From a virus: DNA of 64,000 bases. The position numbers were made by a program, and so were the translations under genes. Where the stretch lies: positions 7,915 through 71,914 of the IMG/VR virus record IMGVR_UViG_3300020219_000016. One strand, 5' to 3'. This document shows positions 41,225-54,854 of the stretch, piece by piece. The notes beneath the pieces were generated by a model. That model was given only the letters and a program-made list of their open reading frames with translations, was not told the DNA's origin and did not search any database. Numbering within the stretch: position 1 is the stretch's first letter; each line of letters starts with the position of its first letter.

Positions 41225-41784
41225 ACACAATGGTCGTTGGGGTCGATGCGTCTCTGAGTTGCACGGGTATCGTGGTTGGTGATAGCCCGCAGTCATTTAT
41301 TGCCAGCGCGGTGAAGATCAAGCCAATGGGCAAGGATATGCGAAACAAGTTCATCCGACTGAAGACGATCGTGAACTGGGTGATGGAGCATTTGAAGGAC
41401 GTGCAAGAGCCGATCATCTTCATTGAAGGGTACGGGTTCGCGTCTCAGTCGGCAGTGGCGCAAGCTGAGCTTGGCGGGATGCTGCGAGTTGGGTTGCTGT
41501 CCGTATTGGGTGAACATGGTCGGCTGATTGAAGTGCCACCGACAAGCATCAAGTTGTTCGTGGCTGAGCATGGACACGCGAAAAAGCCAATGATCGCTGA
41601 GTGGGTGAAGAAACGCTGGGACGTGGCATTCAAGACGGATGATGAATGCGATGCGTACGGGATCTGGCGCTTCGGGCGGGCGTATTTGGGGATCGACACT
41701 GGCTTGTCAGCGAAGCAGGCTGAGAGCGTGGACAAGGTGAAAAACCCAAAATGCAAGGTGCGTAAGATAAAAAAAACTGCGTAA
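41221..41784 (+). CDS. ruvC: RuvC-like Holliday junction resolvase
   Basis: VGVDASLSCTG, IEGY, ELGG, DDECDA. Confidence 0.85.
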   Translation: MNTMVVGVDASLSCTGIVVGDSPQSFIASAVKIKPMGKDMRNKFIRLKTIVNWVMEHLKDVQEPIIFIEGYGFASQSAVAQAELGGMLRVGLLSVLGEHGRLIEVPPTSIKLFVAEHGHAKKPMIAEWVKKRWDVAFKTDDECDAYGIWRFGRAYLGIDTGLSAKQAESVDKVKNPKCKVRKIKKTA

Positions 41785-41805
41785 AGTGTTTGTTCCATCG
41801 TATGT

Positions 41806-42246
41806 GTGGTAAATCGGAGGTGTTTTGTGATAACGTTAGAAGTGGCGTTGAAGTATTCGTTGGATTTGACTGCGTTGCAGGTTGAATCGGATTCGATCAA
41901 TGGCAAGAGCACTGACGTGCTTGAGGTGTTTAGCGCAGCATTGGAATTGCTTGGCTGGGAACCGAATGAACAACCGGTTACTGCCAAGGCGGAAGTTGCT
42001 GCGTCGCCTGAGATAACCATTGAGTCGATCGAGCCATCCACTGATTTGTACAAGGAAGGCGACATCGTCGAAACCCGTTGCGGTGAGCACGCAATAATTA
42101 TCGGACGGAACCAGAGTGGTGGTTACATCGGACACACGAACGCAAACTACCTTGCGTGGGACAGTAATGGGTTTTTATTTTGCAGCGATTTCGAACACCC
42201 AAAAGATCTGGTGCGTCGGATCGGGCGAGTTTGCGATTCAAAGTGA
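41806..42246 (+). CDS. hypothetical protein
   Basis: Tiled ORF, start uncertain. Confidence 0.55.
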   Translation: MVNRRCFVITLEVALKYSLDLTALQVESDSINGKSTDVLEVFSAALELLGWEPNEQPVTAKAEVAASPEITIESIEPSTDLYKEGDIVETRCGEHAIIIGRNQSGGYIGHTNANYLAWDSNGFLFCSDFEHPKDLVRRIGRVCDSK

Positions 42247-42271
42247 ACGGTCTTGTGTATTTGCGAATTGA

Positions 42272-42283
42272 CGTATATGTTAT
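42272..42283 (+). promoter_or_regulatory. recurrent promoter-like motif
   Basis: CGTATATGTTAT. Confidence 0.55.
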
Positions 42284-42297
42284 GCCGTGACGTGTGC

Positions 42298-42387
42298 TTT
42301 TAACGAAACGATCACCCGGCAACGGGAGGAGAATAACCATGAGTGAAACCGAACTACCGTTGCTCGGCGTGCATCGCCTTGTTAGCT
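42298..42387 (-). mobile_element. attC-like recombination site, copy 1
   Basis: Minus strand CTAAC-AAGG-CGAT-G-CAC-GCCG-A-GCAACGG...CCGTTGC-CGGGTG-ATCG-TTTC-GTTA with extrahelical bases. Confidence 0.65.
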
Positions 42388-42497
42388 GCGATTCGATGGT
42401 GGGAGTGCCGTACAAGAAGGACTTCCTGCCGATTCTTCTTGTATCAAAAGAACAGCAGATATTGGCGAAAGATTACAAGACGGCGGCTGATCAGTAA
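42339..42497 (+). CDS. small cassette-like ORF starting inside attC-like site
   Basis: GGAGGAG RBS + ATG in hairpin loop; ends TAA-C. Confidence 0.55.
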   Translation: MSETELPLLGVHRLVSCDSMVGVPYKKDFLPILLVSKEQQILAKDYKTAADQ

Positions 42498-42535
42498 CCA
42501 TGTTAGTGACGTAGGTTTAACCTCGGAGTATTTGT

Positions 42536-42844
42536 ATGAAGAATTTGGAAGCATTCAAGACATCATTTGTTCGTTTGACGGCTGTCTTCGGCCAGCCTGT
42601 GTTCGCAGACAAAGGTTGTATCAGGGATGAAACGTTCGCGGAATACGTTCGTGCGATGGGTGTGTATGAAAGTGTGAGCGATGATGATATTTCGAAGGCG
42701 ACAGATTTCATCATCAACTATGGTCTGGCGTTTCCTTTTCCTGTGCAGTTCGTCAATGCGGTTTTTCAATTGAGAAATGAAGCGGCAGAGGATTTGAAGG
42801 AAGCTGCGAAGGCTGCTGCGAAGGCTGCGACAGTCAAAAGTTAA
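42536..42844 (+). CDS. hypothetical protein
   Basis: GGAG RBS. Confidence 0.65.
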   Translation: MKNLEAFKTSFVRLTAVFGQPVFADKGCIRDETFAEYVRAMGVYESVSDDDISKATDFIINYGLAFPFPVQFVNAVFQLRNEAAEDLKEAAKAAAKAATVKS

Positions 42845-42879
42845 TCAGGCTGAAATGTCCTGTAGTTTAGGATCATGCC

Positions 42880-43407
42880 ATGCGAATCACCGAAGAGATA
42901 CCAGACACAGACCATGCGTACGGCGCGTGTTACGACACAGACTTAGTCTATCGATACGCGATGTGGCGTAGTTGGCAGCCGCGTATTCGTCCCGAACAGA
43001 TGGTGGCGTTCATTGGCGTCAATCCACCAGTTACGGATGAGTCTGAAAAAGACGCCACTCATTCCCGCTGTGTCAACTTAGCGAAGCGTTGGGGATACGC
43101 TGGCGTCGTGCTGGTGAATCTGTTCGCTCTTTGCGTAACCAAGCCGATGGAGCTCAAGCGAGATACCGTACGTGATCCTGTGGGGCCAGAGAATGACGAG
43201 ATGCTGGAGTCGATCGCATTTACTTGTCCGCAGATCGTTTTGGCGTGGGGTAATCATGGCGGTTTTCTGAACCGGGATTGTGAAGTGATTGCGATGCTGA
43301 ATCAAAACGCGGCTGGAAAGATCGTACACCTCGGATTGACGACGGCAGGATTTCCGAAACATCCGCAGTACGTCAGGGATACCGTGAAGCGCACCCCGTG
43401 GTTTTAA
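42880..43407 (+). CDS. DUF1643 family protein
   Basis: YRY..WR.W, FIGVNP...D.T..RC, VNLFA, VGPEND, AWG.HG, G.PKHP.Y. Confidence 0.85.
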   Translation: MRITEEIPDTDHAYGACYDTDLVYRYAMWRSWQPRIRPEQMVAFIGVNPPVTDESEKDATHSRCVNLAKRWGYAGVVLVNLFALCVTKPMELKRDTVRDPVGPENDEMLESIAFTCPQIVLAWGNHGGFLNRDCEVIAMLNQNAAGKIVHLGLTTAGFPKHPQYVRDTVKRTPWF

Positions 43408-43416
43408 GCGTGGTCG

Positions 43417-43441
43417 AAAACTGCTTACCAGAAAGCACTTT
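43417..43441. promoter_or_regulatory. 26-bp palindrome copy 3
   Basis: AAAACTGCTTACCAGAAAGCACTTT. Confidence 0.65.
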
Positions 43442-43461
43442 AGTGTTTTAGGAGTTAAAAC

Positions 43462-44373
43462 ATGAGGTTATTCGCGATTCTGTTGCTGAGTTGTGCGTCA
43501 ATTCTGGCAGACGAGCCTGATTTGGTGGGTGAGCGGTACACGTCGGCATCGTGTGTGCCGTGTCGGCGTTACGAGACGAATGAGCAGAGTCGCGTGACGT
43601 TCGAGTTTGCTGTCGTAAATACAGACAGTAAGCAGGGCTGCGAGCAGGCTGCGAGGTTCAAGGTTACTAAGGTTCCGGCGTTCATCATTCGCGACAAGCA
43701 TGTGGGTACAGTTATTGCCAGGGCGGATGAGTTTCAGACGGCTGAACAGATCAATGCACTGGTTAAAAAGGCGAGTGCTGACCGTCTGGCGCGAGTGAAA
43801 CACAATGAGGCGTTGCTTAAAACTGCCAGCGTTCGTATCACTCACACTGTAGGGTACAGCCGTGCGTGCGGCAGTGGCACGATTATCCGGGTAAGAAACA
43901 AGCGGGCGTGGGTATTGACGGCGGCACATTTGTTTCCGGGTGACGGAGCGATTACGGTTGAGCCTGTGCATCAGCAGGCAGGTAAGCGGTACGTCGGTTG
44001 CATCGTGGTGCATGACAGCATTAAAGATTTGGCCGTGATCAGATTTGATGCCGACGCTGATCTGCTGGCGCTGGAAGACATTGGCACGGCGACGACAGGT
44101 AGTGGATCTGTGGTCGTGTGCGGCTACCCAGGTGATTGGTCGGTATTTCGTAGGTTGGATACCAAGATGCTTCGGCTATCACTGGCGGATGGGTTGCCGA
44201 TCGTCGTAACACAGGGTGATGTTGAGTCGGGAACAAGCGGAGGTGCGTTGACGTTGCACGGGACGATCGTCGGCGTGGTGTCGTGCGTTGATAGAGCAGC
44301 GAAGGAGACATACTGCCCGAACGGTGACAGCATCCAGGCGATTTTGTCACAGGTTGAGTTCCCGAAAGACTGA
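43462..44373 (+). CDS. secreted thioredoxin-like + trypsin-like serine protease
   Basis: Signal peptide, SCVPC, VP.F; protease triad LTAAH / DLA / GTSGG. Confidence 0.85.
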   Translation: MRLFAILLLSCASILADEPDLVGERYTSASCVPCRRYETNEQSRVTFEFAVVNTDSKQGCEQAARFKVTKVPAFIIRDKHVGTVIARADEFQTAEQINALVKKASADRLARVKHNEALLKTASVRITHTVGYSRACGSGTIIRVRNKRAWVLTAAHLFPGDGAITVEPVHQQAGKRYVGCIVVHDSIKDLAVIRFDADADLLALEDIGTATTGSGSVVVCGYPGDWSVFRRLDTKMLRLSLADGLPIVVTQGDVESGTSGGALTLHGTIVGVVSCVDRAAKETYCPNGDSIQAILSQVEFPKD

Positions 44374-44417
44374 TGATTTCGAAAGTTTGCCAAAAATTGG
44401 CAGAAAGGCCAATAATC

Positions 44418-44453
44418 ATCTGCGGCGTGGTCGAGATTTATCGTATATGTCAG
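44418..44453 (+). promoter_or_regulatory. recurrent promoter-like motif
   Basis: ATCTGCG-N17-CGTATATGTCAG. Confidence 0.6.
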
Positions 44454-44498
44454 AGTGGTGTGTTGATTATCTTCGAGGCATGTTCTGGGGGAACAGTG

Positions 44499-46892
44499 AT
44501 GGGAACAGTATTTGACCATGTGCAACGGTCAGTGGTGCAGAAGACAAAAGTGCAGAAATTCGCGGTTGGCCGGATCGTCAAAGAATTTCAGCGTAAACAC
44601 TGTTCATTGGTCACGATGGCGTGCGGTTCCGGTAAGTCCCGTGTGACGTTCAGTGTGATCGAGAAACTGAAGAAGACGATCAGCATTGTCGCGGTACCGA
44701 ATCTCGGGTTGATTAAGCAGGTAAGAGACGGCGTTTCTGACCGTAAGCTATTGCGCAATCACACTCAGTTGCTGGTGTGTTCTACCATTCGGCATGGCGA
44801 TGTGCGTGAAACTCCAGAGGATTACGGGTTTTATGTCACAACAGACCCGCAAACGATTCTGGAAGCGTGCCAAGCGGCTACAGTGAAGAAGCCACTGTTG
44901 ATCGTCGTGACGTACCAGAGCTTTGACAAGATCCAGGCGGCGATGCTTCTGGCAAAGAAGTCTCGCAAGCCGGTAACGCTCGGACTACTTGTCGCTGATG
45001 AGGCGCACAATACGGCGGGTGAAAACACGAAGAAGATGTCGCTGTGCTTGAGTGACAGCGTGGCAAAGATCCAGAAGCGGTTGTTTCTGACAGCAACACC
45101 GCGTGTCGCAGGCGAGACTGTATTGCGCCCTGAAACGTTGAACTGCATGAATGACACCAGCGTATACGGCAATCTGGTTTATGACCTGTCGTTCGCAAAG
45201 TCCATTAAGCAGGGCATCACATGTGACTACGAGATCCGTAGCATGGAAGTCAAATGTGATTCAGAAAAGGCTAAGAAACTGAATGGCAAAGACTACCAGA
45301 AAAGTGAAGGCCGCATTACGGAACTGGCAAAGTTCATCGCTCGTGAAATGAAAAAGAAGCCGGGTATGCGGATCTTCTCGTTTCATACGAAGTGCGAGAA
45401 TGCGGAGGCGTTTAATCAGGCGTTGCTCAAATGCAAAGTGTGGAGTCGCTGCATCACGGGTGAGATGAAGTTCAGCGACCGTGAACAGATTCTGCGGGAG
45501 TTTGAGTCGCCAGGTGAAAGCCGAATCATTACCAGCGTGCGAGTGTTCGCAGAAGGCGTTGACGTGCCGTCAGTTGATACGGTGATGTTGACAGATCCGC
45601 TGACGACAGCAGGTCAGATTGCACAGATGGTTGGGCGTGGCCAGCGCGTGGAAGCTGGTAAGGAAAAACTGACCGTGTTTCTGCCGATCTTTCATCCGGT
45701 CGGGGAAGATGGCGATTTGGCAGAGCAGACGGCGAAGTGTTCGTACTTTCGCAGTGCGCTGAAGGTTCTGCGGGTGATGGCGTCGTTGGATGAGCGGCTG
45801 GTTTCGGAATTGCGCAATTCGAACGAAATAACTGGCGATGAGGATGATGATCCACGGCGAATCATGAAGTTCGAGTTTTCGGAACAGTTTGCGCCGGTGA
45901 TTAAGTCGCTGTTGCTGAATAAGGTTGCACCGTTCGAGCCGAAGACTATTGAGGAAATGGTTGCTGGTTTTCGTGCATCGGAAGTATTGCGACCATCGCC
46001 GGAAACAGGAACGCTCGTTCTGTGTGGAAAGACGCTAAGTGCATGGCGAGCTTATCTATCGCGTCATAAGTTCGAAAAAACGCTGTCAGAGGTTTTCGAT
46101 ATGACATGGCCCGAAACAGCGGAGTTCAACCCAAAAACCGTCGCGGAGATGGTTGCTGGTTTTCGTGCATCAGGTATATCACGACCATCGCAGGCAAAGG
46201 ATAACCTGTCGTTCGTTCTGTGTGGCAGGAGACTGGATACATGGTCAGAGTATCTATCGCGTCATAAGTTCGAAAAAACGCTGTCAGGGGTTTTCGATAT
46301 GACATGGCCCGAAACAGCGGAGTTCAACCCAAAAACCGTCGCGGAAATGGTTGCTGGGTTTCGTGAATCAGGAGTCTCACGACCATCGCAAGCAAGAGAT
46401 AACCAGTCGTTTGTTCTGTGTGGAAAGACGCTAACTACATGGGGACCGTATCTCGTTCGTCATAAGTTTGGTAAAAAGCTGTCCGACGTGTTCAACATGA
46501 CATGGCCTGAAACAGCGGATTGGAGTCCGGAGACGATTGCGGAGATGATTGCTGGTTTTCGTGCATCAGGTATATCACGACCATCGCAGGCAAAGGATAA
46601 CCTGTCGTTCGTTCTGTGTGGAAGGCGACTGGATGCATGGCAACCGTATATAAGGCTCCGTAAGTTTGGAAAAACGCTGTCCGAGGTGCTCGACATGACA
46701 TGGCCACCAAACGGCTACTGGCTCCCATCCTCAATCGACGAAGCCGTCACCCGTCTCCGCAAAGATCACAAGCGTGTTCCATCATTCGGCGAGCAACCAT
46801 GTGGCTTCGCAGCGGATCACTGGGATAACATCGCCAAGAGCCTTGGCATAACAGTACCAGAACTCATGCGTCGTGCATGGCCTGATGCGTAG
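44499..46892 (+). CDS. SF2 DEAH helicase with C-terminal tandem 66-aa repeats
   Basis: MACGSGKS, TYQS, DEAH, LTATPR, EGVDVP, QMVGR.QR; repeats PKT..EM.AGFR..RPS..LCG..L..W..Y...KTLS.VFDMTWP. Confidence 0.9.
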   Translation: MGTVFDHVQRSVVQKTKVQKFAVGRIVKEFQRKHCSLVTMACGSGKSRVTFSVIEKLKKTISIVAVPNLGLIKQVRDGVSDRKLLRNHTQLLVCSTIRHGDVRETPEDYGFYVTTDPQTILEACQAATVKKPLLIVVTYQSFDKIQAAMLLAKKSRKPVTLGLLVADEAHNTAGENTKKMSLCLSDSVAKIQKRLFLTATPRVAGETVLRPETLNCMNDTSVYGNLVYDLSFAKSIKQGITCDYEIRSMEVKCDSEKAKKLNGKDYQKSEGRITELAKFIAREMKKKPGMRIFSFHTKCENAEAFNQALLKCKVWSRCITGEMKFSDREQILREFESPGESRIITSVRVFAEGVDVPSVDTVMLTDPLTTAGQIAQMVGRGQRVEAGKEKLTVFLPIFHPVGEDGDLAEQTAKCSYFRSALKVLRVMASLDERLVSELRNSNEITGDEDDDPRRIMKFEFSEQFAPVIKSLLLNKVAPFEPKTIEEMVAGFRASEVLRPSPETGTLVLCGKTLSAWRAYLSRHKFEKTLSEVFDMTWPETAEFNPKTVAEMVAGFRASGISRPSQAKDNLSFVLCGRRLDTWSEYLSRHKFEKTLSGVFDMTWPETAEFNPKTVAEMVAGFRESGVSRPSQARDNQSFVLCGKTLTTWGPYLVRHKFGKKLSDVFNMTWPETADWSPETIAEMIAGFRASGISRPSQAKDNLSFVLCGRRLDAWQPYIRLRKFGKTLSEVLDMTWPPNGYWLPSSIDEAVTRLRKDHKRVPSFGEQPCGFAADHWDNIAKSLGITVPELMRRAWPDA
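45939..46710 (+). repeat. four ~198-bp intragenic tandem repeats
   Basis: CCAAAAACCGTCGCGGA at 46131 and 46329 (198-bp period) with matching flanking units. Confidence 0.9.
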
Positions 46893-46947
46893 GTCCATAG
46901 AAGCGTGTGTAAGTGTTTAAACCTTGATTTTGAAAGCGAGTGTAGTT

Positions 46948-47685
46948 ATGAAACGACGACAAATTCTCAGAGCCCTTGGTGGAGTCAGTGCCCTTACTGC
47001 AACAGCAGCGGTCGCTGGTCACAATGTCGGCTTTACAAACGATGGTTCCCCGGCAGTGGCAGTGCCATTTCTCACAAGACTGATGGTCATTGCCAGCGCA
47101 CTCGGTGGTGAGTCTGTAATGCGTATCGCATTCGCAGAGTACATGTGCTGGTATCAGCGTGGCGTGCGCGTGTCGTTCTGCCATACGGATGAGCAGCATG
47201 GCGATCTGTCAGAAATGATGGTGGAGATCGAATTGCTGAAAGACAAGAACGAAACGGCAATTAAGCATCTGCGAAAGATTTGCGCAGACGCATCAGGTCT
47301 CAGGTACGAGGCTGTGATGCATGGTCTCACATGGGACGATAAGCGTCGGATGGCAGCGTGGTTGACGGCAGCGTATCTACAGAACGCAGTGGAAGTCTTT
47401 GAGCGGCAGTGCGAACCCGTACAACGGCGTTCAGCGTTTGAGGGTATGATTTGTTCAACGAGTATCGAGCATACTGCGACAATGCTCGATGTGCGGTCAG
47501 ACGGTATTCATCCCCCTGATCTGCTTCGAGCAGAGTTGATTCGCGTATCGCTCGAAATAAAAACGATCGTCGATGAAGGGCACAGGTTCATAAATGTGTC
47601 GATTAAGTCGCATGACAACGGTCATTGCACAGTATCTTGCTATGGCGTGAATCATACGCAAGTTGTTCCCAAACAAGGGTCTTGA
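46948..47685 (+). CDS. twin-arginine signal protein, paralog 1
   Basis: MKRRQILRALGG..AVA; GLTWDDKRRM. Confidence 0.7.
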   Translation: MKRRQILRALGGVSALTATAAVAGHNVGFTNDGSPAVAVPFLTRLMVIASALGGESVMRIAFAEYMCWYQRGVRVSFCHTDEQHGDLSEMMVEIELLKDKNETAIKHLRKICADASGLRYEAVMHGLTWDDKRRMAAWLTAAYLQNAVEVFERQCEPVQRRSAFEGMICSTSIEHTATMLDVRSDGIHPPDLLRAELIRVSLEIKTIVDEGHRFINVSIKSHDNGHCTVSCYGVNHTQVVPKQGS

Positions 47686-47706
47686 TTAGTATCTACTTAA
47701 CAGAAA
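47592..47706 (+). repeat. 115-bp duplication (copy at 49656..49770)
   Basis: AAATGTGTCGATTAAG...TCTACTTAA.AGAAA near-identical. Confidence 0.85.
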
Positions 47707-47717
47707 GAGAGTGACGT

Positions 47718-48458
47718 ATGAATCGTAGAAGCATTCTGAAGTCCGTCAGTGGCGCATTGGCATTGGCGGCAGGGCATCGGGTGGCAGTGGCAGTGCCGGA
47801 GGTGCCGTCTCAGCAGATATCATGGATGTATCGCGCCATCGCGTTGATGCGTCGCATGTGTGTCGATCAAACAATGTGCCGTGTGTTCTATGCACTGCAG
47901 CGGCAGTTGCAATGTGGGTATGAGCCATGCCACATGTCGTCACCGGATGAGTTGAACAGCCTATTGTGTACCCGCAGGGATATGACCACGTTTTATTTAA
48001 GGAACAATGTTATTCAGGTTCCCGTGGAACTCCAGAGGATCGCAGATTCATTGGGGCACCTGAGTAACGAAGAACTTGTCCAAGACTTGTCGTGGGATGA
48101 GCGACGCCGAATCGGAGCGGAAATCATGGAATGGTCATTACGGAAGTTCATGATTTATGAAATGAAAATCGGCGATGGTGGACCACGGAAAGGGACGGAG
48201 ATGGTAGGAGGTTGCCGGGTAGGTCCAGATGACATCGCATTCAAAGTAAGCGACGATGGTGTTTCTGGCGTTGAAGCGCTTCTCAGAAGACTTGAAAAAG
48301 TGAAAGGCTATCTTCTCGAAGATGCGAGGAAGCACACTGTGGTGTACGGTGAAGTCGAATCTTACGAAACTGGTGAAATGTGGATTCGCAGTTACGGTGT
48401 GCGCAATCCAGCAGTCGAAAGTTTCCGATCTCGCGAAACGAAAGTAGGTGCCGTATGA
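47718..48458 (+). CDS. twin-arginine signal protein, paralog 2
   Basis: MNRRSILKSVSGALALAAG; DLSWDERRRI. Confidence 0.7.
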   Translation: MNRRSILKSVSGALALAAGHRVAVAVPEVPSQQISWMYRAIALMRRMCVDQTMCRVFYALQRQLQCGYEPCHMSSPDELNSLLCTRRDMTTFYLRNNVIQVPVELQRIADSLGHLSNEELVQDLSWDERRRIGAEIMEWSLRKFMIYEMKIGDGGPRKGTEMVGGCRVGPDDIAFKVSDDGVSGVEALLRRLEKVKGYLLEDARKHTVVYGEVESYETGEMWIRSYGVRNPAVESFRSRETKVGAV

Positions 48459-49120
48459 AGCGTAGAAGCGTGTTGCAAGCGGTTGGTTGGCTGATGGCGT
48501 TGGTTGGTGGCGGCGTGGCAAAAGCGTCTGTCGATTCAGGAGACGCGCAAGTCTCATTCATGGTTCGAGCGTTAGCCTTAGCTCGCATGATTGGCGATCG
48601 TGACCTTGTGGCCAGAACATTTAGGTCATTGAGTCGCGATCTTCTCTTCGGAATGCAAATGACGATCATGCCATCAGATGATGAGTATGATATGATAAGT
48701 AAAATAGCGTGGGCATCGGGTATTGGGGGGCCAGCTAGTTTAGACGATCGCATTGATGCACTAACAGACACTGCGAAAGGAATGACGTGTGCTGACCTGT
48801 TTCGAGGTCTGTCATGGGACGATCAACGACGGATCGTTATGGCAATTGAAGAACTAACGAAACGATCACCCGGCAACGGGAGGAGAATAACCATGAGTGA
48901 AACCGAACCACCGTTGCTCGGCGTGCATCGCCTTGTTAGTTGCGATTCGATTGTCGTGTCATGGGAAGGCGACGGGCAGTTAGAGGCACATGAGTATGCA
49001 GCCATTTATCAAGAGTGGCAGCGTAACGGCAACAAGGCGTTTCTTTGCCGCGGCATCGAAGACGCTAAGTTCCTGGCGCTCCAATTGGTGAATGGATCGT
49101 GTAATGACTGTCTTGTTTAA
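48455..49120 (+). CDS. twin-arginine signal protein, paralog 3, fused in frame to cassette ORF 48893..49120
   Basis: MKRRSVLQAVG..AKA; GLSWDDQRRI; switches into attC-like duplicate at 48855. Confidence 0.65.
   Translation: MKRRSVLQAVGWLMALVGGGVAKASVDSGDAQVSFMVRALALARMIGDRDLVARTFRSLSRDLLFGMQMTIMPSDDEYDMISKIAWASGIGGPASLDDRIDALTDTAKGMTCADLFRGLSWDDQRRIVMAIEELTKRSPGNGRRITMSETEPPLLGVHRLVSCDSIVVSWEGDGQLEAHEYAAIYQEWQRNGNKAFLCRGIEDAKFLALQLVNGSCNDCLV
48852..48941 (-). mobile_element. attC-like recombination site, copy 2
   Basis: AACTAAC...GTTAGTT perfect outer boxes; 48855..48951 matches 42301..42397 with 2 mismatches. Confidence 0.65.
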
Positions 49121-49304
49121 CGCCATTCATTTGGCAGTACGAGAGAATAAGATGGGAAAGTTCTTCATCTGATAGTTGGCGATGTGCGTAGACGGTGAAT
49201 TGAACGCGAAGTTCTTCGTCTCGGAATTCGTGAAAGACGTTTGGCATTACGGCGTTCATGGATGAATCCTTTTCAGTAGCAACTAACAATTTATTCATCA
49301 ACAC
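49065..49304 (-). CDS. hypothetical protein (opposite strand)
   Basis: AAGGA RBS before MNAVMPNV; fills + strand gap. Confidence 0.4.
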   Translation of the reverse strand: MLMNKLLVATEKDSSMNAVMPNVFHEFRDEELRVQFTVYAHRQLSDEELSHLILSYCQMNGVKQDSHYTIHSPIGAPGT

Positions 49305-49379
49305 ATCGGTCGCAGCGAAGTTCTGAAGGAACGAGTTTGCTACAAGGAATCAGATTCCGATATCGAGGCTTATTGCATA

Positions 49380-49670
49380 GTGTTCAGTGGACCATGTCGG
49401 CTTGCAGGTGGAGACTACACCTTCTCAAGTGCAGATGTGGAAATGAAGTATTCTCTGAACAAGACTATGTCGTTAATGGAAAAAGCGCTACAAGGAACAA
49501 CCGGCATTTCCATCGGCAGATTCACGCCGGTTTCATGGGGCGGGTTTGCCGTGAAGTTCTATTGCAAACCAATACGTGAAAATCTCGAAGAACTTAAACG
49601 GCGCAAGTACGGAAGTGAAAATTGGATCGAGGAGATGATTGCGCGAGACGAGCGAAAATGTGTCGATTAA
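49380..49670 (+). CDS. hypothetical protein
   Basis: Tiled ORF, start uncertain. Confidence 0.4.
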   Translation: MFSGPCRLAGGDYTFSSADVEMKYSLNKTMSLMEKALQGTTGISIGRFTPVSWGGFAVKFYCKPIRENLEELKRRKYGSENWIEEMIARDERKCVD

Positions 49671-49781
49671 GGCGCATGACAACGGTCATTGCACAGTATC
49701 TTGCTATGGCGTGAATCATACGCAAGTTGTTCCCAAAAAAGGGGTTTGATTAGTCTCTACTTAATAGAAATCGAGTTGAGT

Positions 49782-50408
49782 ATGAAGTGTCTAAACGTGT
49801 TGCAAGCCGTCGGTGTCGCGTGTCCATACGGGCAGCGTGCGATGGAGTTGGCGAAACGAATGTGCAATGAGGATGCGTTCGACGGTGTCGTATGGGAATT
49901 GAACACTCGTATTCTCGACAACGACTGTCGCTTCGGTGTCAATGGAATGTGCAGTGAGGATTGGAAGAACATGAGCAGTCCGGAATATCGGCTTGAATTA
50001 AAGTCCGAATTGTCGGTCTATTTTCGTGAGCCAAACGCACTTGAAGCGTGGAGCGACAAGGATCTAATCGACGACATGTCATTCGAGGAGCGTTTTCTCA
50101 TTGGCTCTACAATCGCGATGGAGTCTTTGAAGGAGTACGTGTCGCGAAAAGGTAATGTGCCGGAAGATCGATCGGGCACTAATGAACACGCGAAAGTATT
50201 GGGGGCGGCGTCATGGGATGCAGGCATGCTCACATTTAGTAAACCATTTGAAACTCGATCGGCAATGGAGTCGTTTCGTCATGCTATGTCAACAGCACAA
50301 AGTCATGCACAATTGGTGATGGATCACGAACGAGTGGTTGTGTTAGAGTTTCGACTACATCGTGCGTGTCTTGAGCCGACATATCTCGGATTTGATTCTA
50401 CCCCTTAA
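49782..50408 (+). CDS. paralog 4 of the Tat-signal family, signal eroded
   Basis: MKCLNVLQAVG (cf. MKRRSVLQAVG), RAMELAKRM, DMSFEERFLI. Confidence 0.6.
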   Translation: MKCLNVLQAVGVACPYGQRAMELAKRMCNEDAFDGVVWELNTRILDNDCRFGVNGMCSEDWKNMSSPEYRLELKSELSVYFREPNALEAWSDKDLIDDMSFEERFLIGSTIAMESLKEYVSRKGNVPEDRSGTNEHAKVLGAASWDAGMLTFSKPFETRSAMESFRHAMSTAQSHAQLVMDHERVVVLEFRLHRACLEPTYLGFDSTP

Positions 50409-50591
50409 ACCGCACACGCTGTGGCCGCAAGACGCAGACACAAATGGCGGCAATGACAGCAGTGGGTCTGGAGCGTAGAGTCACGAGCGCAAACTGGTAT
50501 CGTCGTAATTCATTGGCTGTTGCCGTCGATCAGCAGTCCAGAATCGTGACAATCGACTTTCTTTTGTTCAATCTTTAGGGGGGTGGTCAAA

Positions 50592-51050: not shown

Positions 51051-51230
51051 AAATAGACCCACCGTCAGGGTCAAGTGTGAGTGCTGTACGCGGACATGTT
51101 TCGTGGCAGTGCTTGCAGGAAGCCGTTTAAGAGTTCGGGATATATCACTTTACGTGACCGGCCCCGGAGATTGATGAATCGAGGTTCAAAGATTGCGGGA
51201 ATAAATCACCACTCGAACAGGATTGCAAAA

Positions 51231-51779
51231 ATGTGCGGGCCAGAATGTATAGTCGCCATCGCGGCAGGGGATGAGCAGGCGTTCGGAAACCTGATGGTTG
51301 AGTACGAGCGCAAGATGATTCGCTGGTTTTACAACCATGATGTTTCTTGGGATGTCGCCAGAGAGCTCACTCAGGATTTATTCCTGAAGATCTGGAAAAA
51401 GGCCGGCACATTTAAATCGCAATTCGATGTTCACGGATGGCTGTACGCAATCGCGCGGAACATAGCCAAAGATCACCATCGAGCTTTGAATCGTGAAAAG
51501 CGGCACGCATGTGTGTTGCAGTGCGATGACTTTAGCTCGATTGCAGACAGTTACTCAGATGAGTCTCGGCGGATCGACGCGAAAGATGTCGTGGATGCGC
51601 TACTGGCAGGCGAGGATGAGTCTGTGCGAGATTTCCTGTATGACATGGTAGACGGCAGCGGCAGTCGGCTTGAGGAAATGGCCGAGGAACAGCACCTGAG
51701 CTGTGGCGGTGTCCGGTATCGCTACGGCGTTTTATTGAAATCTTTGCGTCAAACAGCAGAATCGTCTGCAATGGTTTAG
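51231..51779 (+). CDS. ECF-type sigma-70 factor
   Basis: GDEQAF..L...Y, ARELTQDLFLKIW, WLYAIARN...D; degenerate region-4 HTH. Confidence 0.85.
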   Translation: MCGPECIVAIAAGDEQAFGNLMVEYERKMIRWFYNHDVSWDVARELTQDLFLKIWKKAGTFKSQFDVHGWLYAIARNIAKDHHRALNREKRHACVLQCDDFSSIADSYSDESRRIDAKDVVDALLAGEDESVRDFLYDMVDGSGSRLEEMAEEQHLSCGGVRYRYGVLLKSLRQTAESSAMV

Positions 51780-51799
51780 GTTTCAGCCGTATATGTCAT
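51764..51799 (+). promoter_or_regulatory. recurrent promoter-like motif
   Basis: GTCTGCA-N17-CGTATATGTCAT upstream of csrA. Confidence 0.6.
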
Positions 51800-51863
51800 T
51801 GTTCGGTGTGTGAATCGCCGCAGTGGCGTGGTTAAATTCGGGGTCTGCATGGAGGAAAGAGAA

Positions 51864-52079
51864 ATGGGTATGCTTTGCTTGAGTCGGAAGGTGGGTCAGT
51901 CTATCGTGCTGGCAGACGGCACGATTGAAATCAACGTGCTCGATATTGCGAGAGGGTGCGTGCGGATCGGAATTTCCGCACCAAAAGACATTGATATTAA
52001 CCGCAAGGAAGTTTATGAACAAATCGTCGTGCAGCGTTCTGAATCTGAGTGCAATCCGGAAGGTGCTGCTGCTGGGTAA
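51864..52079 (+). CDS. csrA: carbon storage regulator CsrA-like RNA-binding protein
   Basis: MLCLSRKVGQSI...I.INVL.I....VRIGISAPKDI.I.RKEVY. Confidence 0.9.
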   Translation: MGMLCLSRKVGQSIVLADGTIEINVLDIARGCVRIGISAPKDIDINRKEVYEQIVVQRSESECNPEGAAAG

Positions 52080-54355: not shown

Positions 54356-54472
54356 CACGATTTGTGCGTATCGCTTTGATTAAACCGGCGGCGAGAGATC
54401 GCCGCCATTGAAACCGACGTTGCCGCCGCTCGGTTTCAATCAATTGTTATGCGGCGATCTGGAGACTTAGCG

Positions 54473-54730
54473 ATGGCCGTAATTATTAAACCCGGACCAA
54501 CCGACCCAGTCACAAATAGTATCTGGCTAGAGGACACCGAGACCGGGGAGCAATATTTTTTGGACGGTGGAGATGGACAAGACGTGGGGTGCGATGTCGA
54601 GACGGGTGATGATCCGTGGTGGTCGGCATTCGTCTCAGGATGCGACGGGAAAAGTCGAGAGGAAGCGGATGAATGGCTTGATGAGCATGCTGATTGTGGA
54701 AGCGACGGATGGGAGCTCCCGTCCGCATAA
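54473..54730 (+). CDS. very acidic small protein
   Basis: GGAG RBS, D/E/W-rich. Confidence 0.65.
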   Translation: MAVIIKPGPTDPVTNSIWLEDTETGEQYFLDGGDGQDVGCDVETGDDPWWSAFVSGCDGKSREEADEWLDEHADCGSDGWELPSA

Positions 54731-54854
54731 CAATGCCTTCTCAGTGGCTTTTTCACTGACATGGTGATTGATGGTCGATTACCAACAACGAAGTTCAGTC
54801 CGAGGTGGGCTGAGTGGGTTTCAAACGTTCCGAGGCGGAACAAAGGGGTTTCTG

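What the first reader, a model, noticed from the sequence alone, without database searches (positions are those of the whole stretch)
42298..49121. Integron attC-like sites heading inverted mini gene cassettes, with no integron integrase in the window
Seen: 42301..42397 and 48855..48951 are the same 97 bp (2 mismatches). On the minus strand this reads CTAAC-AAGG-CGAT[G]CAC-GCCG[A]GCAACGG-loop-CCGTTGC-CGGGTG-ATCG-TTTC-GTTA: AAC/GTT outer boxes, unpaired spacers and extrahelical bases on one arm. Identity starts exactly at TAAC. The loop holds a GGAGGAG RBS and the ATG of a + strand ORF (MSETE.PLLGVHRLVSC). The two ORFs diverge after ~19 codons, and both end in TAA-C (42495..42498, 49118..49121). 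Copy 1 sits between a promoter motif and the next gene; copy 2 interrupts Tat paralog 3. Known: IntI recombines folded attC at G|TT and can insert cassettes at minimal GTT secondary sites. Inference: the phage gains or shuffles small genes as cassettes bounded by AA|C on both sides, probably using a host IntI. The ORF is inverted relative to normal cassettes and carries its translation start inside the site.
Basis: partly seen in the sequence, partly recalled or inferred. Interest (0 to 1): 0.8.

Follow-up and report, generated by a model that had tools for sequence, protein, structure and literature searches.

The report
Integron-type gene cassettes in a phage
A phage from microbial mats carries small genes as mobile cassettes, each headed by a folded DNA site built like the recombination sites of bacterial integrons, and one of them is caught present or absent inside a phage gene in different natural strains.

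Summary

- **The repeat.** 42301-42400 and 48855-48954 are 97% identical and are the only two copies on the 71.9-kb viral contig. A third copy heads an unrelated 90-aa ORF on a contig from another metagenome (L005).
- **The fold.** On the + strand the 90-nt site folds as an integron attC bottom strand: AAC/GTT R box, single unpaired bases at positions 16, 20 and 24 of the 3' arm (C, C, T) and a purine-rich 31-nt loop. Known attC sites folded the same way show 16/23 or 16/20/24.
- **The insertion.** In run X3 one contig joins 48851 to 49285 at an AAC and restores a 260-aa ORF. So a 433-nt cassette (48854-49286) sits inside Tat paralog 3.
- **The cassette signature.** The cassette's right end (49279-49287) is the exact complement of its own R''. 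The same holds for a third cassette I found (54372-54730) and for a 632-nt cassette in L005.
- **The genes.** Cassette ORFs lie on the bottom-strand sense, inverted relative to classical cassettes.
- **Limits.** I found no recombinase gene on the contig. A surrogate attC model gives only marginal scores, and the IntegronFinder model could not be run.

attC clusters in phages are in print (Qi 2023), and this scan has noted integron-like cassettes in other phages.

The parts
42298..42387 (+). attC-like site 1, with the + strand as bottom strand. R' is TTTTAAC and R'' is GTTAGCT. Unpaired 3'-arm bases are C16, C20 and T24. The 31-nt VTS holds GGAGGAG and the ATG at 42339.
   Evidence: MFE fold and position count; strict grammar hit; surrogate CM 9.3 bits in the full-length canonical register.
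42339..42497 (+). ORF A, 52 aa. It starts inside the loop of site 1, and its first 19 residues are shared with the cassette 2 ORF.
   Evidence: Codon-usage score 0.29 per codon overall and 0.46 after the module, like real genes; the antisense ORF scores -0.18.
42304..42520 (+). Cassette 1, right end uncertain. The left cut is 42303|42304. Candidate right cuts are 42497|42498 (CAGTAA|C) and 42520|42521 (GTTTAA|C).
   Evidence: No exact complement of R''+2 within 3 kb; candidates read from the sequence. This part is inferred.
48852..48941 (+). attC-like site 2. R' AACTAAC pairs 7/7 with R'' GTTAGTT. Unpaired 3'-arm bases are C16, C20 and T24; the VTS is 31 nt.
   Evidence: strict grammar hit; surrogate CM 15.4 bits, second best of the window.
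48854..49286 (+). Cassette 2, 433 nt, inserted in Tat paralog 3. It is absent in one contig of run X3.
   Evidence: Joint 48851->49285 with 3 nt (AAC) fitting both sides, one contig at depth 6.6; X3 depth is 6.5 on both flanks and 0.9 within the unit. Present in L004 and covered in X1, X2 and X4.
48893..49120 (+). Cassette 2 ORF, 75 aa, starting in the loop of site 2. It is also in frame with the N-part of paralog 3, giving a 221-aa fusion.
   Evidence: Codon-usage score 0.25 to 0.34 per codon. The fused protein is conserved in P0001 at 98% identity.
49279..49287 (+). Right terminus of cassette 2: GCAACTAAC, the exact complement of R'' plus 2 nt (48935-48943). The cut is 49286|49287.
   Evidence: 11-nt perfect inverted repeat 48933-48943 / 49279-49289; the only exact match within 3 kb; it coincides with the X3 joint.
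48455..48853 (+). N-part of Tat paralog 3 (133 codons), upstream of the insertion.
   Evidence: Homology to paralogs 1 and 2 and to P0002 ends at residues 131-138.
49287..49670 (+). Orphaned C-part of paralog 3. It is read in frame with the N-part once the 433 nt are removed, giving 260 aa in all.
   Evidence: open frame of 127 codons; codon-usage score 0.19 per codon.
54366..54452 (+). attC-like site 3, of a different sequence family. R' is GCGTATC (ATC instead of AAC) and R'' is GTTATGC. The CM alignment puts C at EHB position 16 and T at position 23.
   Evidence: Surrogate CM 29.7 bits, E 1.5e-4 for the whole window, best hit. The unconstrained MFE prefers another fold.
54372..54730 (+). 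Cassette 3, 359 nt: site 3 plus the 85-aa ORF 54473-54730. The ORF's TAA stop is the TAA of the terminal CCGCATAA|C.
   Evidence: Exact 9-nt complement of R''+2 at 54723-54731, the only one within 3 kb; ORF and RBS.

Best explanation
These are integron-type gene cassettes sitting singly in a phage genome.

**Structure.** Each cassette begins, on the + strand, with a folded single-strand recombination site built like the bottom strand of an attC site. Its cargo gene follows on the same strand.

**Proposed mechanism (inferred).** A free circular cassette recombines through its folded + strand with a short target (5'-GWT-3' on the opposite strand, AAC or ATC on the + strand). The cut falls between A and C.
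- The bulk of the site ends up at the left end of the inserted cassette.
- The 6 nt that pair with the cassette's own R'' end up at the right end.

**What this did to the phage.**
- It put a 433-nt cassette into the gene for Tat paralog 3, replacing the gene's C-terminal 127 codons by a cassette-encoded tail.
- It put a 359-nt cassette between two genes at 54.4 kb.
- It probably put a third cassette between a promoter-like motif and the gene at 42536.

**Shared sites.** Sites 1, 2 and L005-B are about 97% identical because they come from one homogeneous site family, as in sedentary chromosomal integrons, while their cargo differs.

**Shown versus inferred.** Shown here: the site geometry, the presence/absence polymorphism, borders at AAC, end complementarity and gene orientation. 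Inferred: that the enzyme is an IntI-type integrase supplied in trans (by the host or a co-resident element), the circular intermediate and the single-strand exchange.
For: **1. Geometry, with controls folded the same way.** Criteria were read as passages of Nivina 2016 (PMC5027507) and Nivina 2020 (PMC7439510):
- R' 5'-RYYYAA|C and R'' GTTRRRY;
- EHBs on the L'' arm at position 16, optionally 20, and 23/24, the last a conserved T, with a 6-bp stem between first and last;
- total length 57-141 nt and a VTS of 3-100 nt.

Unconstrained MFE folds gave unpaired 3'-arm bases as follows:

| Site | Unpaired 3'-arm bases |
|---|---|
| aadA1, aadA2, psp and qacH-side sites (MH445380); TJE1 site | G16, T23 |
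| estX, cmlA, dfrA sites | C16 |
| All 3 module copies | C16, C20, T24 |

Shewanella phage M16-3 integron sites show 16/20/24 (A, A, T). The module's VTS is 22/31 purines.

**2. Specificity.**
- A strict grammar (no stem mismatch, apical stem >= 7 bp, >= 2 outer R-box pairs) hit 7 times in 26.4 Mb of random sequence, 2 of them three-EHB. That is 0.27 and 0.076 per Mb per strand.
- In the window it hit only the two module copies.
- At zero mismatches it also found 5 known class 1 sites, and 7 with one mismatch allowed.

**3. Mobility.**
- One X3 contig joins 48851 to 49285, with AAC fitting both sides.
- The joined form is one open 260-aa frame although 433 is not a multiple of 3.
- X3 contigs on the flanks show 0 differences over 47641-48483 and 49339-49702.

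**4. Cassette signature.** The reverse complement of R''+2 is found exactly:
- at 49279-49287 for cassette 2;
- at 54723-54731 for cassette 3;
- as the R' region of site B for L005 cassette A, 632 nt.

Of 238 relaxed candidates in six sources, 15 had an exact partner. These included known class 1 and Shewanella cassettes, and in the window only these two sites. Scrambled targets matched in 70 of 4,645 trials, or 1.5%. The two window sites are also ranks 1 and 2 of the surrogate CM.

**5. Third context.** L005 shares only the 89-nt block with the phage.

**6. Surrogate CM.**
- It finds 2 TJE1 sites that were not in its training set, at 37.8 and 31.6 bits.
- The module aligns full length in the canonical register at 15.4 and 9.3 bits.
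- That is inside the 9.1-22 bits of 16 regularly spaced true Vibrio chromosomal attC sites scored in the same way.

**7. Precedent.** IntI inserts cassettes at genomic 5'-GWT-3' sites, can disrupt genes and leaves single attC sites (passages of the Loot preprint 10.1101/2022.09.11.507474). attC clusters occur in phages (Qi 2023, PMC9892861, section 3.4 and tables).
Against: - **No recombinase.** No PF00589, PF00239 or PF01797 match at E <= 1 on the contig, which is estimated to be 78% complete.
- **CM scores are weak.** The IntegronFinder attC model could not be run. My surrogate gives copy 2 E = 0.44 for the whole window and puts copy 1 at noise level, 9.3 bits against a background of 7-10. 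Unseen true TJE1 sites scored 31-38 bits.
- **UCS.** It is 4 nt per arm, with only 2 unpaired in the MFE, not the usual 5-6.
- **EHB 16.** It is C, not the usual G.
- **Orientation.** All cassette ORFs are on the bottom-strand sense. [quoted passage not shown]
- **Cargo.** Its codon usage looks like the phage's own genes.
- **Cut position.** The cut implied for cassette 2 is the outer AAC, 4 nt from the canonical place in the integrated fold.
- **Copy 1.** It has no complementary right end within 3 kb. The only alternative allele at locus 1 has borders at 42262/42879, not at AAC.
- **The empty allele.** It rests on one Logan contig (depth 6.6) of one run, and the tool marks 'between: not known'.
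- **No covariation.** Only 3 positions vary among the 3 module copies and none is in a stem, so structure is not shown by covariation.
- **Few members.** No further members were found in viral or genome collections.
Confidence: 0.7

Rival explanations
1. These are hairpin-bounded cassettes of a phage-specific, integron-like system run by another recombinase, for example a short Xer-like tyrosine recombinase encoded by related phages. The resemblance to attC would then be convergent.
For: - No IntI on the contig.
- Genes follow the site on the same strand, the reverse of integron cassettes.
- Cargo codon usage is like phage genes.
- Earlier unchecked notes of this scan describe such systems in other phages, one with genes facing the other way.
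Against: - The EHB positions 16/20/24, the terminal T, the AAC/GTT boxes and the AA|C borders are the features that IntI reads, and they match real attC controls exactly.
- No tyrosine recombinase of any kind was found here.
- The site family was not seen elsewhere in the scan.
Confidence: 0.15
2. The 89-nt block is an mRNA leader element, such as a translational operator or a processing hairpin that presents the RBS and start codon in its loop. It is shared by a family of small genes, and the genes move by illegitimate or microhomology-mediated recombination at the foot of the hairpin.
For: - The hairpin lies on the sense strand and folds well as RNA (z -4.1 for copy 2).
- The RBS and ATG are in the loop.
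- The junction microhomology is only 3 nt.
- L005 has an upstream ORF that ends on the start codon, which suggests translational coupling.
Against: - It does not explain the exact attC geometry, for which about 0.01-0.03 chance hits are expected per window.
- It does not explain the exact 9- to 11-nt complement of R'' at the far end of two cassettes and in L005.
- It does not explain site 3, which has the same design but no start codon in its loop.
- Rfam has no match.
Confidence: 0.1
3. This is an ordinary segmental duplication of 100 nt of coding DNA from paralog 3 to the intergenic spot at 42.3 kb, or the reverse, with no site function.
For: - The region is full of paralog recombination (joints among paralog 5' ends).
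- Copy 2 is in frame in paralog 3.
- MAFFT can align the paralog 3 tail to its siblings.
Against: - The same block heads a different gene on an unrelated contig from another metagenome.
- The block is the left end of a 433-nt indel.
- C-terminal homology of the paralog 3 tail to its siblings is not significant: z 1.8 at best, -0.4 to -0.7 for the others.
Confidence: 0.03

Closest known systems
Integron attC sites occurring singly or in small clusters without an integrase (SALIN / CALIN), created by attC x attG insertion (Cury 2016; Neron 2022; Loot preprint 10.1101/2022.09.11.507474)
   Same: - Folded imperfect hairpin with an AAC/GTT R box, EHBs at 16/(20)/23-24 and a variable loop.
- Cut at AA|C.
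- Insertion at a 5'-GWT-3' target, here GTT and GAT; both targets read TGWT.
- Insertion into a gene, and a precise empty allele.
- No integrase nearby.
   Different: - The cargo gene is on the bottom-strand sense, so the site comes first and the gene second.
- One site family carries the RBS, the start codon and 17 codons in its loop.
- The UCS is 4 nt, and EHB 16 is C.
- The host replicon is a phage.
- The enzyme was not identified.
attC clusters and integrons in phage genomes (Qi et al. 2023, PMC9892861)
   Same: attC-type sites without an integrase in phage genomes. That paper reports 17 CALINs in 10,705 phage genomes, and 5 of 6 tested phage sites were recombined by IntI1.
   Different: - Those were found with the published models, as clusters of at least 2 sites within 3-4 kb, mostly with genes in the usual orientation.
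- Here the sites are 5.5-6.5 kb apart and inverted relative to their genes.
- Here one insertion is caught as a natural presence/absence polymorphism inside a phage gene.
Homogeneous attC families of sedentary chromosomal integrons, such as VCR of Vibrio (three EHBs at 16/20/24 per Nivina 2016)
   Same: - Near-identical sites (about 97%) with unrelated cargo.
- The three-EHB layout.
- A long VTS.
   Different: No array and no intI were seen. The source integron, if any, is unknown. Only 3 members were retrieved, plus one partial member seen as a loose contig end.
CTX-phage attP(+) hairpin used by host XerCD, and IS200/IS605 subterminal hairpins (recalled, not tested against sequences here)
   Same: A folded single strand serves as the recombination substrate, and the enzyme is supplied in trans or elsewhere.
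   Different: No dif-like core is present and no Y1 transposase was found. There is one hairpin per unit, not two. The borders and bulge geometry fit attC.

Membership tests
Integron attC site | R box: 5'-RYYYAAC-3' on the bottom strand paired with 5'-GTTRRRY-3', with AAC/GTT conserved | tested here: met
   - Site 2: AACTAAC / GTTAGTT, 7/7 paired, 6/7 to each consensus.
- Site 1: TTTTAAC / GTTAGCT, 6/7 to each consensus.
- Site 3: the integrated R' is GCGTATC (ATC), but its circle form would read GCATAAC.

Integron attC site | Extrahelical bases on the L'' arm at position 16, optionally 20, and 23/24, with a 6-bp stem between first and last | tested here: met
   Unconstrained MFE: positions 16, 20 and 24 unpaired in all 3 module copies. 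Controls gave 16/23 (8 known sites) and 16/20/24 (Shewanella sites).
Integron attC site | EHB identities: usually G at 16, conserved T as the last EHB | tested here: inconclusive
   T24 is met. Position 16 is C, as in the estX, cmlA and dfrA control sites but unlike the usual G.
Integron attC site | Unpaired central spacer, usually 5-6 nt on each arm | tested here: not met
   GAAA / CCTT, 4 nt per arm, of which 2 per arm are unpaired in the MFE. The distance from the R box to the first EHB is nevertheless canonical.
Integron attC site | Length 57-141 nt, VTS 3-100 nt, purine-rich unpaired parts on the bottom strand | tested here: met
   90 nt overall; VTS 31 nt with 22 purines; 5' spacer GAAA.
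Integron attC site | Significant score with the published attC covariance model (IntegronFinder; HattCI + Infernal, 20 bits) | not testable with these tools
   The model is not on hand. A surrogate built from 8 control sites gave:
- site 3: 29.7 bits (E 1.5e-4);
- site 2: 15.4 bits (E 0.44 window-wide);
- site 1: 9.3 bits;
- true Vibrio chromosomal sites: 9.1-22 bits.

Integron gene cassette | Borders at the AA|C (G|TT) cut, with the 6 nt before the downstream cut belonging to the cassette and complementing its own R'' | tested here: met
   - Cassette 2: X3 joint at AAC and an exact 9-11-nt complement at 49279-49289.
- Cassette 3: 9/9 at 54723-54731.
- L005 cassette A: 9/9.
- Null: 1.5% per candidate.
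- Cassette 1: not met.
Integron gene cassette | Gene on the top strand, with attC downstream of the gene | tested here: not met
   Sense-strand ORFs score as genes and top-strand candidates score as antisense, in all 3 window cassettes and in L005. Here the site comes first and the gene second.
Complete integron | intI (a tyrosine recombinase with the IntI-specific insert) and attI next to the array | tested here: not met
   No PF00589 match at E <= 1 on the 71.9-kb contig, which is estimated to be 78% complete. attI was not searched.
CALIN (at least 2 attC within 4 kb, no integrase) | Clustered attC sites | tested here: not met
   The window sites start at 42298, 48852 and 54366, so they are 6.5 and 5.5 kb apart and count as single sites (SALIN type). 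L005 does hold two sites 632 nt apart.
Integron attC site | Recombined by an integron integrase as a folded bottom strand | not testable with these tools
   Needs the attC x attI suicide-conjugation assay.

The most novel reading that the evidence does not exclude
Phages of this community share a pool of 'sense-strand' integron cassettes in which the recombination site doubles as a portable translation start: RBS, ATG and 17 codons sit inside the attC loop. With an integrase borrowed from the host, a phage can add small genes. It can also land a cassette in frame inside one of its own genes and so exchange the C-terminal domain of a secreted (Tat-signal) protein in one step, as seen in paralog 3, where the fused 221-aa form is kept in a second strain.
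Probability: 0.25. Interest if true: 0.75.

Novelty: new variant of a known kind. Interest (0 to 1): 0.55.

Why it matters
Integron cassettes are known as a bacterial gene-capture system. attC clusters in phages were reported only in 2023, and cassette insertion outside integrons (attG sites) has mainly been shown in laboratory assays.

- **A natural event.** Here such an event is caught in nature. The same phage exists with and without a 433-nt cassette inside one of its genes, with borders and end complementarity that fit the integron mechanism.
- **Testable questions.** It gives concrete substrates and predicted junctions for asking whether environmental phages use host integrases to shuffle accessory genes.
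- **Unusual design.** The gene lies on the recombining strand, and the start codon lies inside the site. That raises the question of whether attC sites can serve as translation-initiation or gene-fusion modules.

Tried and rejected
**Searches that found nothing useful**
- Rfam on 40-52 kb: no match at E <= 1.
- Phage GenBank collection with 41800-43400, blastn: no match.
- Viral-contig scans with neighbouring or cargo proteins: no relative.
- Viral-contig scan with the 5'-arm 19-mer: one hit, L003, an AT-rich unrelated phage sharing only the 19-mer at an RBS. I judged it chance.
- 3'-arm 22-mer in viral contigs: none.
- Peptide-pattern scans for the shared N-terminus in viral and genome contigs: none confirmed.
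- Protein searches: the 75-aa cassette ORF has no homolog. Paralog 3 has only P0001, P0002 and its sibling P0003. The cassette 3 ORF has only its own cluster.
- Pfam and PHROGs: nothing at or below E 0.01 for any cassette ORF.

**Tests that were inconclusive or negative**
- I tried to decide from sequence whether the repeat is native to paralog 3. Smith-Waterman z-scores of the C-terminal halves were inconclusive for both the fused tail and the orphan tail.
- A supposed similarity (MKYSL) between ORFs 41806 and 49380 was chance.
- The right end of the unit has no hairpin and no terminator.
- IS200/IS605 idea: no Y1 transposase. Serine recombinase: none.
- Group I or II intron and intein readings were rejected by eye. 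The border bases do not fit and 433 is not a multiple of 3.

**Limits of my own tools**
- The MFE-geometry scan alone is unspecific: 2 other loci in the window, and several in the controls.
- The surrogate CM with default filters missed the module and all Vibrio sites.
- No further sites were found in the first 8.2 kb of the contig.
- The depth tables are per contig and are used only as stated.
- Supplementary tables of Qi 2023 and of the Loot preprint, which hold attC coordinates and attG motifs, were not seen.
- The host (planctomycete?) was not tested here.

Full report
**What is there.** The window is bases 7915-71914 of a 71,914-nt IMG/VR viral contig, estimated to be 78% complete. A 100-nt direct repeat, 42301-42400 and 48855-48954, is 97% identical. 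Its mismatches are at 42355, 42386 and 42398. It has only these two copies on the contig. Identity begins abruptly at TAAC and fades 12-15 nt after GTTAG.

The repeat folds into an imperfect hairpin of about 90 nt. Its 31-nt loop holds GGAGGAG and an ATG that opens a 52-aa ORF (42339-42497) and a 75-aa ORF (48893-49120). The two ORFs share their first 19 residues but for one. Fold z-scores are modest: copy 1 gives -1.3 as DNA and -1.5 as RNA, and copy 2 gives -3.05 as DNA and -4.1 as RNA. Rfam has no match.

**Copy 2 is the left end of an insertion.** Copy 2 lies in frame inside paralog 3 of a family of four Tat-signal proteins. Detectable homology of paralog 3 to its siblings and to the only database relatives stops at residues 131-138, and the repeat starts in codon 134. 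Comparisons of the C-terminal halves were inconclusive.

Four microbial-mat runs hold the region. I laid them on 41500-50500.
- Run X3 has one contig (depth 6.6) that joins 48851 to 49285, with the three letters AAC fitting both sides.
- X3 depth is 6.5 on both flanks and 0.9 inside the skipped part.
- The flanking X3 contigs show no difference from the window.
- The tool marks 'between: not known', and this allele rests on that one contig.

Removing the 433 nt, which is not a multiple of three, gives one open frame of 260 codons, the length of the family (245-264 aa). The rejoined C-part scores as coding. The occupied form is present in L004, a 5,253-nt metagenome contig of a strain 93-99.7% identical, whose fused protein is P0001.

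However, the unit ends at 49286|49287, not at 49121.

**A third context.** A scan of metagenome contigs with 22 nt of the 3' arm found L005, 1,132 nt, from another metagenome.
- The same block heads a different 90-aa ORF there, and nothing else on L005 resembles the phage.
- The three-way conserved block is 42302-42390 (89 nt), from AAC to 3 nt beyond GTTAGYT.
- It has three variable positions, none in a stem.
- In L005 an in-frame TGA lies 15 codons before the ATG, so the start codon in the loop is the real start.

**Is it an attC site?** I took the definition from passages of Nivina 2016 and Nivina 2020:
- a bottom strand with R' 5'-RYYYAA|C and R'' GTTRRRY;
- extrahelical bases on the L'' arm at position 16, optionally 20, and 23/24, the last a conserved T;
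- a 6-bp stem between the first and last EHB;
- spacers of usually 5-6 nt, total length 57-141 nt and a loop of 3-100 nt;
- purine-rich unpaired parts.

As controls I fetched the class 1 arrays of phage P1 isolate MH445380, phage TJE1, a Vibrio phage and a Shewanella prophage, all named in Qi 2023.

Unconstrained folding gives these unpaired 3'-arm positions:

| Sites | Unpaired positions |
|---|---|
| 8 known control sites | 16 and 23 (G/T or C/T) |
| Shewanella sites | 16/20/24 |
| All three module copies, read on the + strand | C16, C20, T24, after R'' GTTAGYT and spacer CCTT |

The loop is 22/31 purines. The shortfalls are a spacer of 4 nt and a C at position 16.

A strict grammar built on these rules behaved as follows:
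- at zero mismatches it found 5 known class 1 sites, and 7 with one mismatch allowed;
- in the window it hit only the two module copies;
- it hit random sequence 7 times in 26.4 Mb.

The published attC covariance model was not available, so I built a surrogate from 8 control sites.
- It found two TJE1 sites it had not seen.
- With filters off it aligned the module full length in the canonical register, but at only 15.4 and 9.3 bits. Window-wide, copy 2 ranks second at E 0.44.
- Sixteen true Vibrio chromosomal sites score 9.1-22 bits under the same conditions.

The surrogate therefore neither proves nor excludes membership.

**The cassette signature.** In integron arrays the letters before each AA|C cut belong to the preceding cassette and pair with that cassette's own R''.
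- The right terminus of the 433-nt unit (49279-49289) is a perfect 11-nt complement of 48933-48943.
- In L005 a second, diverged site lies 632 nt upstream of the module, and the R' of the module (AACGAAC) is the exact complement of that site's R''.
- The best surrogate hit of the window, 54366-54452 (29.7 bits), predicted a right end that occurs exactly once within 3 kb, at 54723-54731. This delimits a 359-nt cassette whose 85-aa ORF ends in the terminal TAA|C.

I then ran the test on all 238 relaxed candidates in six sources. It picked 15, including known class 1 and Shewanella cassettes, and in the window it picked only these two sites. Scrambled targets matched in 1.5% of trials. Copy 1 has no such partner, so its right end is undefined.

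**Orientation and enzyme.** Codon-usage scores show that the sense-strand ORFs are genes and that the canonical-orientation candidates are not. No tyrosine recombinase, serine recombinase or Y1 transposase was found on the contig.

Both delimited cassettes sit at targets that fit the 5'-GWT-3' attG consensus of the Loot preprint (GTT and GAT), and both are followed by CAAT.

The cut implied for cassette 2 is the outer AAC, 4 nt from the canonical place in the integrated fold. It becomes canonical if the free circle folds with the 9-bp R box formed by its two ends.

**Verdict.** The most likely reading (0.7) is that these are integron-type cassettes inserted singly into a phage genome by an IntI-type integrase acting in trans. 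The rivals are:
- another phage recombinase using look-alike sites (0.15);
- an mRNA leader moved by illegitimate recombination (0.1);
- plain duplication (0.03).

attC clusters in phages (Qi 2023, section 3.4 and tables read) and attG insertion (Loot preprint, passages read) are already in print, and integrons are reported in Planctomycetes (Cury 2016, passage). Earlier notes of this scan describe integron-like cassettes in other phages, though not this site family.

Three things are new here: the natural presence/absence allele inside a phage gene, the inverted gene orientation, and a site family that carries a translation start.

Noticed in passing
46924-50408: The Tat-signal paralog array varies in copy number between strains. 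Contigs join 46946->48454 (X3), 46946->49781 (X4, depth 56.8) and 47049->47796 (X4). L004 has a single paralog 1/2 hybrid of 262 aa.
   Followed up: partly
44373-46892: The helicase-like 839-aa ORF ends in 198-nt tandem repeats whose number varies. X4 has a joint 45946->46661, and the ORF is 775 aa in L004.
   Followed up: no
49639-49819 versus 47592-47755: The tail of paralog 1, the spacer and the next signal-peptide start are duplicated at 85% identity before paralog 4. The tail copy is out of frame with the orphan C-part of paralog 3.
   Followed up: partly
42262-42879: Run X3 holds the window's arrangement (contig 42233-42908, 0 differences). It also holds an allele in which 616 nt are skipped or replaced: the promoter-like motif, site 1, ORF A and the 102-aa ORF. 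The borders are not at AAC.
   Followed up: no
41806-42246: There is a 176-nt deletion allele (42027->42204, in X3 and X4) and a 13-nt insertion after 42020 (X4) in the 146-aa ORF upstream of site 1.
   Followed up: no
48899-48937: X1 and X2 each hold a contig that shares only these 39 nt (the end of the loop and the 3' arm up to GTT), with unlike sequence on both sides. This is probably another member of the site family in the same community. It could not be retrieved.
   Followed up: no
L005 rc 732-800 (L005 333-401): A 22-codon upstream ORF with an AGGAG RBS runs through the 5' arm of the site and stops at a TGA overlapping the start codon of the 90-aa ORF (ATGAGTGA). This hints at translational coupling.
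   Followed up: partly
49287-49290 and 54731-54734: Both delimited cassettes are followed by CAAT, so both targets read TG|TT and TG|AT on the other strand. That resembles the TGWT preference reported for IntI2 in the Loot preprint. With only two cases this may be chance.
   Followed up: partly
54473-54730: The cassette 3 protein cluster (P0004) is recorded on 3 contigs, the longest 110.8 kb. That may be a more complete genome of this phage.
   Followed up: no
51081-52079: Read by eye from the translations and not tested: an ECF-sigma-like ORF (51081-51779) followed by a CsrA-like ORF (51810-52079). CsrA binds GGA motifs in hairpin loops, which may bear on the GGAGGAG loop of the module.
   Followed up: no
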